DNA from: Octopus sinensis
Taxonomy: Eukaryota
DNA: 64,000 nt
Assembly: GCF_006345805.1 (NCBI RefSeq)
Contig: NW_021836141.1
Location: forward strand, 62,001-126,000
Direction of reading: 5' to 3'
The first letter of the stretch is position 1. Each line of letters opens with the position of its first letter. The notes beneath the pieces are model-generated. The model had not been told where the DNA came from. It made no database searches and saw only the letters and a program-made list of their open reading frames with translations. Of this stretch, positions 30,274 to 58,701 are shown in pieces. Both the position numbers and the translations under genes were made by a program.

Positions 30274-30308
30274 GTTTCCGACGAGGAGCTCCGCTCGAAA
30301 CGTTAAAC
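30274..30308 (+). ncRNA. Minimal type-I hammerhead ribozyme candidate, copy 1
   Basis: GUUU-CCGACGA-G-GAGC-UCC-GCUC-GAAAC-GUU-AAAC: stem I GUUU/AAAC, stem II GAGC/GCUC, palindromic AACGUU. The core has a U4C variant. Confidence 0.65.
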
Positions 30309-30544
30309 CCTCCTTCTTTCCTTCTTTCCTGAGCGTCCAATAATACTATATTTGTTCCACGTCCTCGCATTGTTGTGTTTTTTTGTGCTTTCTTGTTTGG
30401 ATTAACTTTATATATATATATATATTATATATATATATATATGTGTGTGTGTGTGTATGTGACCATTCAAAATGTGACCTCGTGTGTACCGTTTGCGATT
30501 TTTTTCCCTCTGTCTTCCCTTCTCTGGATCTTTCCTTCTCCTAT

Positions 30545-30579
30545 GTTTCCGACGAGGAGCTCCGCTCGAAACGTTAAAC
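30545..30579 (+). ncRNA. Minimal type-I hammerhead ribozyme candidate, copy 2
   Basis: Identical to 30274-30308. Confidence 0.65.
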
Positions 30580-30736
30580 CCTCCTTCTTTCCTTCTTTCC
30601 TGAGCGTCCAATAATACTATATTTGTTCCACGTCCTCGCATTGTTGTGTTTTTTTGTGCTTTCTTGTTTGGATTAACTTTATATATATATATATATAATA
30701 TATATATATATATATACATATACATATATATATTCG

Positions 30737-31182
30737 ATGACAGGTGTCCGTGCTAGTGTAGCGATGAGAGTACCATCCGAGTGTGATCGGTGGCATGTAA
30801 AAAGCACCATCCGAGCATAATCGTTACCAGCGTCGCCTTACTGGTACTTGTGCCGGTGACATGTGAAAAACTATTCAGGCAAGGTCATTGCCAGTGCCGC
30901 TGGACTGGCTCCTGTGCAGGTGGCACATAAAAAACACGATTTGAGCAAGGCTGTTGCTAGTACCGCCTGACTGGCCCTCATGCTGGTGGCACGTAAAAGC
31001 ATCCACTACACTCTCAGAGTGGTTGGTGTTAGGAAGGGGATCCAACTGTAGAAACTCTGCCAGATCAGATTGGAGACTGGTGCAACCATCTGGTTCACCA
31101 GTCCTCAGTCAAATCGTCGAGCCCATGCTAGCATGGAAAGCAGACATTAAACGATGATAAAGATGATGATGATGATGATGAT
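30737..31182 (+). mobile_element. RTE LINE 3'UTR fragment
   Basis: GGTGGCACGTAAAAGCA repeats, the terminal motif and the (GAT)n tail. Confidence 0.85.
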
Positions 31183-31185
31183 ATA

Positions 31186-31795
31186 TCTATATATATAAAA
31201 CTCAGCTTGTGTGTCTGTGTGTTTAACTTCCCGGCACATCTCCTCCTAGCCAACAAATCGTAGAACCACCAAAAATGGGTCACTTAAAGTTTAGGCGAAT
31301 GAAAATTGAACTGCACTATTTCTGTTCCGAAATTCATCTCGCAAGTGCAAAAATCAATAATGTGTTTGTTTAGGCCTTATCCCATGCATTAAATAGGGAA
31401 TTTTACTCAGTCAGCTGTTTGACGTGAACTGTGTTCACCACGCGTGCAAGCATGCGTAAATTGCATGAAATATAAAAAATCAAGATATAAAAACGAATCG
31501 CCGTAAACATTGTAGAAATTCAGCAAAGAAATGAATTTTCGGGATGTAGCCTGGAGGGTTTTTTCGTATTGGACTTTGTGCAATAACATTTTTAACGCTT
31601 TGAATTAAATGTGACCATTTTGCGTTGAGTCTGCAGTTTGAATCACATTAACCAAATTTTAGCAGGCCGGATTTTTGATCAACACGATACATCGCCAGCG
31701 ACTCCCTGAAACTCTCCCTTGAAATACCTGTTGAGAAATCTATATATATAAAACTCAACTTGTGTGTCTGTGTGTGTGTCTGTGTGTTTAACTTT
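31186..31795 (+). mobile_element. Helitron-type fragments (5' ends at ~31186 and ~31739)
   Basis: The start TCTATATATATAAAACTCArCTTGTGTGTCTGTGTG occurs twice. Confidence 0.55.
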
Positions 31796-31844
31796 TGGAT
31801 CTACGAAGTTTCATTATTAAGGATGGAAAGTAGTGTGTAGCAAA

Positions 31845-32217
31845 TCTATATATATAAAGCTGAAGTTGTCTGTGTATGGCAGGTTTGGTAGCCTTCAACT
31901 AACACTATCTCCTTCGAGACCCTGCATCGCAAGTTGACTAAAATTGAGAGTATGATAGAAGAAGGCTTGCTCTTCATTCTGTAGAAGATAAAATTCAAAT
32001 CGGACCATGTTAAGACCAAAAATTATTTACATCAAAAAGGTGCTTTTTTTCTATGAAAATCCCTATTTTTTACGATTTTTGACTGCTGCGTCACCATTTT
32101 CCGGTATATTTCACTTGAAGAGAATAACAAGTTGCATAATGCAAAATTTTTACTTTTCAAAAATTCCAATTCTAAAGGGTCGAAACAAACTCAAGCAACA
32201 CCGGGTGATACTGCTAG
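31845..32217 (+). mobile_element. Complete non-autonomous Helitron-type element
   Basis: A|TC 5' end, subterminal CTCAAGCAACACCGGG, CTAG|T 3' end and no TSD. Confidence 0.8.
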
Positions 32218-32354
32218 TATATATATATATATATATATATATATATATATATATATATATATATACATATATATATTGTCAGTGTATCATATATCCGAAA
32301 AAAGGACGCTCTAAAGAATAGAGCAGTAATGTATCAAACATATATCTGGTCATA

Positions 32355-32414
32355 GAGTGACCAATGGTTTAGCATCCATAAAGCGATAGGCCTTATAGAT
32401 GACTCGTCAGACTC
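32355..32414 (-). ncRNA. Type-I hammerhead ribozyme candidate (G12U-degenerate)
   Basis: GAGU-CUGACGA-G(U)CAUCUAUAAGGC-cuauc-GCUUUAUGGAUGC-UAAA-CCAUUGG-UC-ACUC: all three stems pair and the GUC site is present. Confidence 0.7.
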
Positions 32415-32491
32415 AATGGCAGATATATATCCCTCTTCTATGATATGCATCTGCCATTGAGTCTGACAAGCCGTTTATAAGGTCAAGTGCT

Positions 32492-56210: not shown

Positions 56211-56256
56211 TTTTCAGACCTTCTATTCAATTTTAAATTAATAGAAGGTCTGAAAA

Positions 56257-56302
56257 CCACCTGATGAATCTACTTAGAAGTGACAAGAAACAATTGTAGT
56301 GG
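56257..56302 (+). ncRNA. Minimal type-I hammerhead ribozyme candidate (stem II mutated)
   Basis: CCAC-CUGAUGA-aucuacuuagaagugacaa-GAAAC-AAUU-GUA-GUGG. Confidence 0.6.
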
Positions 56303-56415
56303 ATAACTTAATTTTATTTAATTTATATAAAAATTTTTATGTATTGGATTAAGTCTTTCTTTGTTTGATTTGCATAATAGTGGTTTTGTCTCTAATTAAT
56401 ATTATATATATATAT

Positions 56416-56489
56416 ATTCTGTAAATAATAATAATAGTATTTTATAAGATTTAAGCTTATAAAATACTATTATTAGTATTTACAGAATT
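56416..56489. repeat. AT-rich hairpin of ~73 bp
   Basis: ATTCTGTAAATA.TAATAATAGTATTTTATAAG pairs with CTTATAAAATACTATTATTAGTATTTACAGAAT. Confidence 0.85.
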
Positions 56490-56612
56490 GTAAAAGTCGA
56501 CACTGCTTAACAAAACCATCTCAGTGAAAGCATACACACACACAAACTGCGCTTCAAATTATTAACATTTTTTATTTTAATTAACAACCACTTGTTGGAA
56601 TTCAACGAAATT

Positions 56613-57430
56613 GGATCTTTTCCTTTTGAACGGCATATGTCAACACAATTTCTAGTTAACTAAACACTTTTAAACTTCGTATACTGGTAGAATGTGTTTA
56701 TAAAACATCATTTTTTCTTGGCTTTATTGAGAAAATTCTATACTTTGTAAGATATTTCCACTTTAAAATCGAGCATTTCGGCAATTTTAACCAATCGCTG
56801 AAGTCCATTTGGGGTTCAAACATTCCGTGCTGTATGAATATGTCCCTCCTTTAAGAAACAGATTGGGTTTTTTTACATTTGCGAAGAAAAAAAGATACCC
56901 TTTCCCCACCCTAACCCTAAAACAGATTGAAATGCAATAGTTCGATACTAGGGTCATAATTATGGGTGACAATTTCATACGACACCGCTACGGAAAATGG
57001 GATTTTTTTCTAGCGGTGTCTAATGAAAATGTCACCCATAATTATAACCCTAGTATCGATCTATTGCATTTCAATCTGTTTTAGGGTTAGGGTTAGTTAG
57101 AGTTAGGGGTGGGGTTAGGGTTAGGGTTAGGGGTGGAGGAAGGGTATCTTTTTTTCTTCGCAAATGTAAATAAACCCAATCTGTTTCTTAAAGGAGGGAC
57201 ATATTCATACAGCACGGGATGTTTGAACCCCAAATGGACTCCAGCGATTGGTTAAAATTGCCGAAATGCTCGATTTTAAAGTGGAAATATCTTACAAAGT
57301 ATAGAATGTTCTCAATAAAGCCAAGAAAAAAATGATGTTTTATAAACACATTCTACCAGTATACGAAGTTTAAAAGTGTTTAGTTAACTAGAAATTGTGT
57401 TGACATATGCCGTTCAAAAGGAAAAGATCC
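56613..57430. mobile_element. 818-bp foldback MITE with 8-bp TSD and internal TTAGGG repeats
   Basis: GGATC...GATCC ends, TSD ACGAAATT at 56605-12 and 57431-38, and arms complementary up to the centre at ~57000. Confidence 0.95.
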
Positions 57431-57586
57431 ACGAAATTTCCACAGAATGATTGCAATAATTGTATGCGCGTGGTGTGTAAAAACGTGAGCTTTTGCGCAA
57501 GTGTAAACAAACCGCGGCCATTTGCATGATTTCCAAGAACTTTCAGTGTTCCAAATTATTAACGAGTGGTCGATAATCGTGTAATT

Positions 57587-58142
57587 GTGGGTCGTAAATG
57601 TGACCTAACTGCCTCAGAGAAATCCGTTATTACTTCTGAACTTGCAAAAGGTAAATCAACATTAGAAATATCTAAAATAATTTGAAGATATCGCCAAACT
57701 ATGAAGACATTTGTTACAGCTCCTACGAAGATACGCAAGAGATCCGACAAGGGTCAGTCGAGGGCTGTTTCTCAACGTTCTCTGTCACGAATTTAGCGTG
57801 AAGCTATAAAGAAGCCAGGTCTTATAAGTGGAGAACTTTTCAAGCGCATTGGCGAAACAGCTGTGTCCAGAACTACTCGATGTCGTCTCCTGAAAAAAGG
57901 TCGATAAAAGGCCTCCCTTTATACAAACTACACATATAAAATCGTCTGAAATGGGCAGAAGATAACATGAAGGTCAACTTTCCAAAAGTTTTATTTATGA
58001 ACGAAACTCATGCGACTCTTGATGGACCTGATAGTTGGAGCATGGACGATATCATTATCAACGCTTGAGACGCCAACGAGGAGCGGGTCGCAACATGATT
58101 TGGGCAGGTATTATTGAAGGCATTATGGCTGATCCTTGGAGA
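57587..58142 (+). pseudogene. Tc1-family transposase remnant (DD37E/TRT-like)
   Basis: GRKCDLTASEK..TLEISK, VSRTTRCRLL, RLKWAEDNMKVNFPKVLFMNETHATLDGPD and RLRRQRG..MIWAGI, with stops and frameshifts. Confidence 0.85.
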
Positions 58143-58378
58143 GAAAAGAGAGAGAAGAAGGAGGGAAAGTAATAAAATAATAAAAAAATGATAAAATATT
58201 TTTATTATTTTATTACTCTTCTTCTCTCTCTTTTTTCTCTTCTCTTTATTCTCTTATCTTTTTTCTCTTTCTTTATTCCTCTCTTCCTGTTTTCGATTTG
58301 GCCCAACTAATACACTCCCTTAGGTCACTTTAAATAAAAAAACCTTTGACTCTACCACACTGTTTATAAATACTGTAC

Positions 58379-58520
58379 TTGGAATGACCAAGTTTAAATA
58401 CTGCTGGATCTCACTCATAAGGTATTGGTATCTTACATTGTGTATAAACTCTATATTTGGAAGGACCCATTTTAAATTCTGTTGGATTTTACTCATAAGG
58501 TATTGGAATCTTACATATAT
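58379..58520. repeat. Imperfect ~78-bp tandem duplication
   Basis: TTTAAAT.CTG.TGGAT...ACTCATAAGGTATTGG.ATCTTACAT occurs twice. Confidence 0.8.
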
Positions 58521-58649
58521 ACCATTCTGCCTAAAAGACGGATCTACAACTTCAATATCCCTACATATCTTACATCTATTTTCTTTCCTCCACCTCACTC
58601 CCTCTTTTGTATCCTATCTAAACTACTATTACTTAACCATTCTCACACC

Positions 58650-58701
58650 GTCTCCGATTAACGGATATAATTAATAAATATCCTGGAAACAGCTGTAAGA
58701 C
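58650..58701 (+). ncRNA. Degenerate type-I hammerhead ribozyme candidate
   Basis: GUCU-CCGAUUAAC-GGAUAU..AUAUCC-UG-GAAAC-AGCU-GUA-AGAC: the stems and the palindromic ACAGCUGU are intact, but CUGANGA has decayed. Confidence 0.55.

What the first reader, a model, noticed from the sequence alone, without database searches (positions are those of the whole stretch)
30274..58701. A repertoire of unrelated hammerhead families concentrated at (TA)n tracts
Seen: six sequence-unrelated hammerhead-like motifs at 30274/30545, 32355, 51622, 54418, 56165/56257 and 58650. All have type-I topology, and five have a different palindromic or near-palindromic stem III (AACGUU, ACCAuUGGU, ACUCgGAGU, ACAAUUGU, ACAGCUGU). 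Most lie in inverted or tandem repeats near TA microsatellites, and Penelope RT/GIY-YIG remnants occur in the same window. Inferred: many co-resident PLE/retrozyme families. The family-specific palindromes could act as pairing codes that restrict dimer cleavage to the same family.
Basis: partly seen in the sequence, partly recalled or inferred. Interest (0 to 1): 0.75.

Follow-up and report, generated by a model that had tools for sequence, protein, structure and literature searches.

The report
Minimal hammerheads of Penelope-type retrotransposon tails
These are copies, several of them damaged, of a known miniature self-cutting RNA motif at the tails of six abundant jumping-gene repeats that end in TA runs; the motifs likely cut only as pairs, and because unrelated repeat families reuse the same palindrome it is unlikely to be a family-specific code.

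Summary
All six motifs are real, type I, far above shuffled controls, and each belongs to a separate high-copy repeat family whose 3' end abuts (TA)n at a fixed distance. Three families are tied to Penelope-like element (PLE) coding sequence: F4 to a Neptune-type RT + GIY-YIG ORF, F3 to a Hydra-type ORF, F2 to a related endonuclease. F1, F5 and F6 showed no ORF and are probably non-autonomous derivatives. This is the published picture (Cervera and de la Pena 2014; Craig 2021). Stem III stays self-complementary while sister families change its letters, which supports dimer pairing. The 'pairing code' is not supported: six palindromes are shared by families with no detectable flank similarity (ACGU by two very abundant ones); close relatives often share stem I and compatible palindromes; one family is non-palindromic; and in a swapped dimer stem I also has to match. 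Several window copies have damaged cores. Cleavage was not tested. The scan reported the same thing and the same verdict on the code earlier on other DNA. A seventh, non-circularly permuted hammerhead (20789-20844) was seen in passing.

The parts
30274..30308 (+). F1 minimal type I hammerhead, copy 1 (stem I GUUU/AAAC, core with U4C, loopless stem III ACGU)
   Evidence: family 1449 first-look candidates
30545..30579 (+). F1 hammerhead, copy 2, in the second unit of a 2 x 271 bp direct tandem; the only same-strand pair in the window
30409..30441 (.). (TA)n tract at the 3' end of F1 unit 1 (a second one at 30680-30715 ends unit 2)
32355..32414 (-). F2 hammerhead (stem I GAGU/ACUC, long stem II, stem III ACCAuUGGU); this copy has G12U and is likely inactive
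   Evidence: family 1142 candidates; GIY-YIG remnant upstream on the same strand in 5 of 28 loci
32218..32276 (.). (TA)n tract at the 3' end of the F2 element; pieces of an inverted arm at 32442-32495 and 32785-32835
51622..51682 (+). F3 hammerhead (stem I GAUAA/UUAUC, intact core, stem III ACUCgGAGU); copy is 5'-truncated at the start of stem I
   Evidence: Hydra-type RT-linker(CxCx5C)-GIY-YIG upstream in L116, L205, L306
54418..54458 (-). F4 hammerhead-like motif (3 bp stem I, family-wide A9C, non-palindromic stem III AGAACU) in the 3' pLTR of a Neptune-type PLE
54859..55143 (-). C-terminal end of the F4 PLE GIY-YIG endonuclease (5'-truncated insertion); similarity to P0002 at 54967-55107
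55109..55224 (+). Inverted 5' arm of the F4 insertion, starting 4 nt after the predicted cut and ending at (TA)n 55228-55251
56165..56210 (-). F5 hammerhead, arm 1 (stem I CCAC/GUGG, intact core, A10.1.A11.1 mismatch, stem III ACAAUUGU)
56257..56302 (+). F5 hammerhead, arm 2 of a head-to-head inverted repeat (arms 56059-56232 / 56235-56408, 97%); stem II damaged
58650..58701 (+). F6 hammerhead (stem I GUCU/AGAC, family-majority U4C plus private G8U, stem III ACAGCUGU); likely inactive; element ends at (TA)n 58911-58934
52901..53860 (+). Broken PLE remnant (RT thumb, Cx3CxxC linker, GIY-YIG) of a further family; no hammerhead detected behind it

Best explanation
The six motifs are minimal type I hammerhead sequences at the 3' ends of six unrelated high-copy repeat families, three of them attached to Penelope-like retrotransposon coding sequence and three likely non-autonomous derivatives, which were likely inserted into (TA)n runs by PLE endonucleases and likely cut RNA only as pairs. 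Shown: motif anatomy, families, fixed (TA)n junction, ORF linkage for F2/F3/F4, self-complementarity of stem III kept through compensatory change between sister families. Inferred: stem III is too weak as a hairpin, so two same-sense copies on one tandem precursor swap strands and form a double hammerhead (both stem III and stem I become inter-copy), which trims the precursor. The palindrome is constrained only to be self-complementary; it drifts among the few allowed states (16 perfect 8-mers with AC...GU fixed), through G.U or CpG-transition intermediates, so different families differ by default and collide by chance. Partner choice would come mainly from being on the same transcript. Most genomic copies, including nearly all in this window, are single or inverted, truncated and likely inert.
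For: Motifs above shuffles in window and in 1.4 Mb of evenly spaced genome (20 vs 0-1 in 5 shuffles); genome-wide patterns 17,751 vs 1,004 control and 18,134 vs 219. With the four central bases left free, 69 of the 100 listed matches are perfect palindromes and 20 more pair with G.U (hand count; copies are not independent). (TA)5+ within 300 nt 3' of the motif in 25/26, 15/28, 25/28, 27/28, 25/27, 19/28 loci (F1-F6) against 17.6% of 7,000 random points, at family-fixed distances. PLE ORF in 23 of 28 F4 loci, 95% identical to an RT protein with DKG, YxDD, Cx4CxxC and GIY-YIG motifs; Hydra CxCx5C linker upstream of F3 in 3 loci; GIY-YIG upstream of F2 in 5 of 28 loci. Stem III hairpins are +0.4 to +6.0 kcal/mol where a hairpin can form, homoduplexes -1.7 to -14.1 for the 22 palindromic ones. 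Compensatory pairs in sister families: ACAAUUGU/ACGAUCGU (91% flank identity), ACUCGAGU/ACUGCAGU (78%), ACACGUGU/ACAUAUGU (75%), ACGUACGU/ACGGCCGU (69%); in F3 the unpaired central base takes G, A, C or U. Sharing across unrelated families. Literature: PMC4209133, PMC8557442, PMC6765202.
Against: No cleavage was measured, and 5' ends of copies do not pile up at the cut (4 of 188 arms start within 5 nt of it; loci were chosen with queries that span the motif). No ORF was found for F1 (0 of 26 loci), F6 (0 of 28) or F5 (one weak E 0.008 hit in 27, on the wrong side), so their PLE origin rests on anatomy alone. Pfam support for the ORFs is weak (below curated cut-offs). Families with non-consensus cores have amplified (A9C and no palindrome in F4, U4C in F1 and F6 subfamilies), so cleavage may be dispensable. 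Direct tandems are rare among sampled loci (6 of 165). Within families stem III is not clearly better kept than its surroundings (F1 4/100 vs 40/1649; others lower). TA tracts could have grown after insertion; empty sites were not examined.
Confidence: 0.82

Rival explanations
1. Pairing code: each family keeps its own palindrome under selection so that hammerheads dimerise and cleave only within a family.
For: The six window families are incompatible in all 15 pairs; 16 distinct stem III sequences among 23 hand-picked representatives; four sister pairs differ by double compensatory changes, one at only 9% flank divergence.
Against: Identical palindromes in families without detectable flank similarity: ACGU (F1/F7), ACGAUCGU (F5c/F9), ACGAUUGU (an F5b variant/F10), ACUCGAGU (F11/F12), ACUGCAGU (F16/F19), ACAUAUGU (F13/F18). 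One young subfamily amplified both ACGAUUGU and ACAAUUGU (42 and 22 of the 100 listed rows, hand count), which cross-pair. All 5 pairs compatible in both stems are relatives. Two of the four compensatory switches are CpG-type transitions. F4 has no palindrome. Stem I alone separates most unrelated families (18 of 253 pairs have 3 or more bp).
Confidence: 0.1
2. Vestigial or non-catalytic motif: the hammerhead shape is inherited from PLE ancestors and now serves as a dimerisation or protein-binding element for retrotransposition, or merely rides along, with little cleavage in vivo.
For: Amplified families with A9C, U4C, A6U or A10.1.A11.1; inserted copies keep the motif uncut; published in vitro activity of minimal hammerheads is low (PMC4209133) and 8 of 9 Xenopus dimers did not cleave (10.64898/2026.07.22.740005); Craig et al. 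note that HHRs may simply parasitise PLEs.
Against: CUGANGA, GAAA and UH are kept across more than 20 diverged representatives with different stems, which argues for selection on the catalytic fold in source elements; U4C retains function in a viroid (PMC3088659).
Confidence: 0.2
3. Chance motifs in an AT-rich, repeat-rich window.
For: Rfam listed no hammerhead family among the 150 rows shown of 243; several copies deviate from the core.
Against: 0 of 100 shuffles reach the observed count; each motif is shared by hundreds to thousands of candidates; relatives restore the damaged core positions; 18- to 80-fold genome-wide excess over control patterns.
Confidence: 0.01

Closest known systems
Minimal type I hammerheads (min-HHR) in pLTRs of metazoan Penelope-like elements (Cervera and de la Pena 2014, PMC4209133; read parts 1-2 of 4: abstract, results, discussion, start of methods)
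   Same: Type I order, 4-5 bp stem I, extra base between A9 and G10.1, absent or short palindromic helix III, many sequence families per genome, mostly solo or close inverted copies, predicted dimer activity.
   Different: Here several lineages use 8-9 nt palindromes; family-level core changes (U4C, A9C, A10.1.A11.1); the paper's read parts do not discuss specificity between families.
Hydra-clade and Neptune-clade PLEs (Craig et al. 2021, PMC8557442; passages and section 11 read)
   Same: C-terminal GIY-YIG, CxCx5C linker (F3) or Cx2-5CxxC linker (F4), hammerhead in the pLTR, (TA)n targets, 5' truncation, inverted 5' copy, extension at one end only.
   Different: Clade assignment here is by linker motif only; no RT tree was built. 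The one-sided 3' extension is 13-170 nt here against 30-40 bp in the paper.
Animal non-LTR retrozymes as non-autonomous PLE derivatives (PMC7229834, passages; 10.64898/2026.07.22.740005, part 1 of 5 and passages)
   Same: Short non-coding repeats with a type I hammerhead; F1 forms a 271 bp tandem; another family in the genome forms 558 bp tandems (L325).
   Different: Most F1/F5/F6 copies are single or inverted, not tandem arrays; circular RNA was not examined.
Dimer-cleaving small hammerheads of PLEs (Lunse, Weinberg, Breaker 2016, PMC5785218)
   Same: By title and by the review PMC6765202 (passages): diminished palindromic stem III, cleavage as dimers.
   Different: The paper itself was not held; whether it tests heterodimers could not be seen.

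Membership tests
Minimal type I hammerhead (min-HHR) | Order stem I - CUGANGA - stem II - GAAA - stem III - UH - stem I | tested here: met
   all six families
Minimal type I hammerhead (min-HHR) | Consensus catalytic core intact | tested here: inconclusive
   Met at family level for F2, F3, F5 and CUGA subfamilies of F1; not met for F4 (A9C), most F6 and many F1 copies (U4C), and window copies of F2 (G12U) and F6 (G8U)
Minimal type I hammerhead (min-HHR) | Absent or short palindromic helix III, unstable as monomer | tested here: met
   5 of 6 families; F4 not palindromic
Minimal type I hammerhead (min-HHR) | Covariation of helix III between relatives | tested here: met
   four sister pairs with double compensatory change; wobble intermediate amplified
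Minimal type I hammerhead (min-HHR) | Self-cleavage at H17, as a dimer | not testable with these tools
   needs in vitro assay; insertion 5' ends gave no clear footprint
Penelope-like element pLTR | Linked to RT + GIY-YIG ORF upstream on the same strand | tested here: inconclusive
   met for F4 (23 of 28 loci), F3 (3 loci with linker motif), F2 (EN only, 5 of 28); not found for F1, F5, F6 in 3 kb loci
Penelope-like element pLTR | 5' truncation, inverted 5' arm, extension at one end only | tested here: met
   inverted in 14/27 F5, 14/28 F2, 11/28 F3, 5/28 F4, 2/28 F6, 1/26 F1 loci (overlapping loci counted twice); two 3' end points per family
Penelope-like element pLTR | Insertion into (TA)n | tested here: met
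   empty sites not examined
Hydra clade PLE (F3) | CxCx5C linker before a C-terminal GIY-YIG | tested here: met
   L116, L205, L306 (definition)
Hydra or Neptune clade | Placement in an RT phylogeny | not tested
   no reference set of PLE RTs was fetched
Non-LTR retrozyme | Tandem units each with a hammerhead | tested here: inconclusive
   F1 is a 2-unit tandem in the window, but 24 of 26 other F1 loci are single
Non-LTR retrozyme | Expressed as linear and circular unit-length RNA | not testable with these tools
   no listed holder on record as RNA
   six shared palindromes
   only base-pair compatibility was computed

The most novel reading that the evidence does not exclude
Stem III and stem I together act as a compatibility barrier between sister lineages: a PLE lineage that switches its palindrome by a double compensatory change (ACAAUUGU to ACGAUCGU at 91% flank identity, ACUCGAGU to ACUGCAGU, ACGUACGU to ACGGCCGU, ACACGUGU to ACAUAUGU) escapes trans-dimerisation and cleavage by abundant relatives or parasitic non-autonomous copies, so palindrome turnover is positively selected: an RNA-level self/non-self system among transposons.
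Probability: 0.1. Interest if true: 0.7.

Novelty: new member of a known kind. Interest (0 to 1): 0.24.

Why it matters
As found, it adds one more animal genome with tens of thousands of PLE-type minimal hammerheads and gives natural compensatory series of the dimer helix. These series (same stem I with different stem III, and the reverse) are ready-made reagents for the open question of what PLE hammerheads do and whether they act in cis or in trans. If palindrome turnover proved to be selected for partner discrimination, it would be a new kind of self-recognition among mobile elements; present evidence favours drift under a self-complementarity constraint.

Tried and rejected
Rfam scan: no hammerhead family among the 150 rows shown of 243; hits were microsatellite-driven. 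Pfam on window and locus ORF pieces: nothing at E 0.1 for 5 of 5; weak RVT_1 or GIY-YIG hits below cut-off for 4 of 6 full-length relatives and 1 of 3 EN pieces. ESM Atlas gave no answer. Search for ORFs near F1, F5, F6, including a 4.7 kb inverted F5-clade insertion (L321) and longer F1 and F6 loci (L322-L324): none convincing. Cleavage footprint in insertion 5' ends: none clear; the -53 pile-up in F5 reflects the reference copy used. Test for fewer collisions than chance: 3.4 colliding pairs expected for 11 lineages over 16 states, the same order as seen, but the representatives were hand-picked for variety from listings limited to the start of contig C1, so it is not a formal test. Contig C12619 holds a 99.4-100% copy of the window at the six places compared; these loci and the window's own were left out of family counts. 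Literature searches for a published family code listed none by title or abstract start; the most relevant paper (PMC5785218) and all supplements were not seen.
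Full report
Observation. The eight motifs lie at the stated coordinates and read, 5' to 3', stem I, core, stem II, GAAA, stem III, H17, stem I. I call the families F1 (30274, 30545, +), F2 (32355-32414, -), F3 (51622, +), F4 (54418-54458, -), F5 (56165 -, 56257 +) and F6 (58650, +). A descriptor scan gave 4 hits with at most one core change against a mean of 0.01 in 100 shuffles, and 5 against 0.28 with two changes; no shuffle reached the observed count. The descriptor was set after seeing the motifs and missed F2, F4 and one F5 arm. 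Rfam showed no hammerhead family in the 150 rows displayed of 243. The six families have no mutual blastn similarity.

Families. The window lies in G000, a 2.7 Gb animal genome; the closest named protein relative of the F4 ORF is from Octopus vulgaris. Each motif is part of a dispersed repeat with 463 to 3,075 first-look candidates, of which the best 40 were scored and 30 loci fetched. Relatives restore what is damaged in the window: F2 normally has GAAA, F6 normally has G8. Some departures are family-wide: A9C with a 3 bp stem I and non-palindromic AGAACU in F4; U4C in 14 of 22 scanned F6 copies and in many F1 copies; A10.1 opposite A11.1 in most F5 copies. Genome-wide, a core plus 8 nt stem III pattern matches 17,751 times against 1,004 for the reversed control, a core plus ACGU pattern 18,134 against 219. 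In 140 evenly spaced 10 kb stretches, 20 near-intact palindromic motifs were found against 0-1 in 5 shuffles, 0.91 per 64 kb; the window has 5 from 4 insertions. So the window is a somewhat rich but ordinary sample.

(TA)n. TA tracts are common (1.2 per kb in the sample, 1.6 in the window), yet the link is real: a (TA)5+ tract starts within 300 nt 3' of the motif in 25/26 (F1), 15/28 (F2), 25/28 (F3), 27/28 (F4), 25/27 (F5) and 19/28 (F6) loci, against 17.6% of 7,000 random points, at family-fixed distances and usually with two alternative end points (the window's own loci and its near-identical twin contig left out; overlapping loci counted twice). The queries contained no TA tract. Inverted two-arm insertions are frequent in F2, F3 and F5; direct tandems occur in 6 of 165 loci. 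These are the PLE hallmarks described by Craig et al. (PMC8557442, passages and section 11).

Link to PLE coding sequence. F4: 23 of 28 loci hit PLE proteins; the ORF shows the DKG, YxDD, thumb, Cx4CxxC linker and GIY-YIG motifs (motif names partly recalled, partly), i.e. Neptune-type; the window keeps only the endonuclease tail (54859-55143). F3: RT thumb, CxCx5C linker and GIY-YIG about 1 kb upstream on the same strand in L116, L205 and L306, the Hydra signature. F2: a related endonuclease remnant 300-600 nt upstream in 5 of 28 loci. F1, F5, F6: no convincing ORF in 26, 27 and 28 loci or in four longer insertions; they are probably non-autonomous derivatives, as proposed for animal retrozymes (10.64898/2026.07.22.740005, abstract and passages). 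Pfam hits were weak throughout. No RT tree was built.

Mechanism. Cervera and de la Pena (PMC4209133, parts 1-2 of 4) describe exactly such motifs: many families per genome, palindromic or missing helix III, predicted dimers, low in vitro activity. Here stem III hairpins are unfavourable (+0.4 to +6.0 kcal/mol) and palindrome duplexes favourable. With the four central bases unconstrained, 69 of the first 100 listed matches are perfect palindromes and 20 more pair through G.U (hand count, non-independent copies). Sister families switch letters but keep self-complementarity: four double changes at 69-91% flank identity, a G.U intermediate that itself amplified, and a free central base in the 9 nt F3 stem. 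These positions would be loop in a monomer, so pairing between two copies is the likely constraint. In a double hammerhead each core takes U16.1, H17 and the 3' strand of stem I from the partner (my inference from the geometry), so stem I must match too. The likely setting is a tandem precursor transcript; in this window only F1 offers two same-strand copies, and both have U4C. Cleavage is untested, and insertion 5' ends show no pile-up at the cut (4 of 188 arms within 5 nt, biased ascertainment).

The code hypothesis. For: the six window families are incompatible in all 15 pairs, and 23 hand-picked representatives show 16 different stem III sequences; sister families sometimes switch. Against: six palindromes are shared by families without detectable flank similarity, among them ACGU in the two families that make up nearly all of the first 100 rows; 17 of 253 pairs are compatible in stem III, and the 5 pairs compatible in both stems are all relatives, where discrimination would matter most; one young subfamily carries two cross-pairing versions, 42 and 22 rows of 100 (hand count); two of four switches are CpG-type transitions; only 16 perfect 8-mers exist with AC...GU fixed, and random draws give collisions of the order seen (not a formal test); F4 thrives without a palindrome. 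Drift under a self-complementarity constraint explains all of this; selection for discrimination between sisters is not excluded (about 10%). Five literature searches listed no paper on such a code; the key experimental paper (PMC5785218) and supplements could not be read, and may bear on heterodimers.

Earlier notes of the scan report the same kind of motif, and one the same rejection of a family code, on other DNA; I reached that reading before opening them and do not count them as support. They led me to check insertion starts and a permuted hammerhead at 20789-20844, listed under things noticed in passing.

Verdict. Interest 0.24.

Noticed in passing
window 20789-20844 (+); truncated relative with core at 38981-38987 (-): A seventh hammerhead-like family with blocks in the order cleavage site, GAAA, CUGANGA (type SGC order of PMC10085705, passages read). 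Stems III and I (5 bp each) covary between the window copy, L324, L350 and L316; 2 hits in 1.4 Mb against 0-1 in 5 shuffles, one of them probably chance. The family has 1,140 first-look candidates. The 38.9 kb copy and 8 of 12 fetched copies begin after (TA)n near the GAAA block (query-biased). Stem II was not resolved. Earlier notes describe permuted hammerheads in this genome. More unusual than the six motifs in the finding.
   Followed up: partly
F4 family (window 54418-54458; L121-L150): A very young, ORF-bearing PLE family whose hammerhead has A9C, a 3 bp stem I and no palindrome in all aligned copies: either cleavage is dispensable or the fold differs.
   Followed up: partly
L232, L237 and related loci: F1-related family with core CUGUYGA (A6U) and ACGU, in several independent copies.
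   Followed up: no
L325 (G000:C1:398900-400400): 558 bp tandem repeat with an intact ACGUACGU hammerhead in every unit, flanked by an inverted copy: a retrozyme-like array able to form cis dimers.
   Followed up: partly
L321 (G000:C1:29521250-29525950): 4.2 kb A/C-rich non-coding insertion between two inverted F5-clade hammerheads, with internal repeats and a long inverted segment; no ORF.
   Followed up: partly
window 56612-57431: Nested long inverted repeats (97-100%), MITE-like, with a short (TTAGGG)n-like run at about 57080-57135.
   Followed up: no
window 42627-43382 (+), 57600-58120 (+): Mariner/Tc1-like transposase remnants, by eye from the translation (family names recalled).
   Followed up: no
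window 18743-19360, 46514-47113, 49025-50019, 55384-55743: LINE reverse transcriptase remnants (RTE- and CR1-like by eye; names recalled).
   Followed up: no
window 16106-16336 (+), 52901-53860 (+): Further broken PLE remnants with no hammerhead detected behind them.
   Followed up: partly
G000:C12619 versus the window (C12612): A second contig is 99.4-100% identical at all six places compared: probably an uncollapsed haplotype or a recent duplication.
   Followed up: partly
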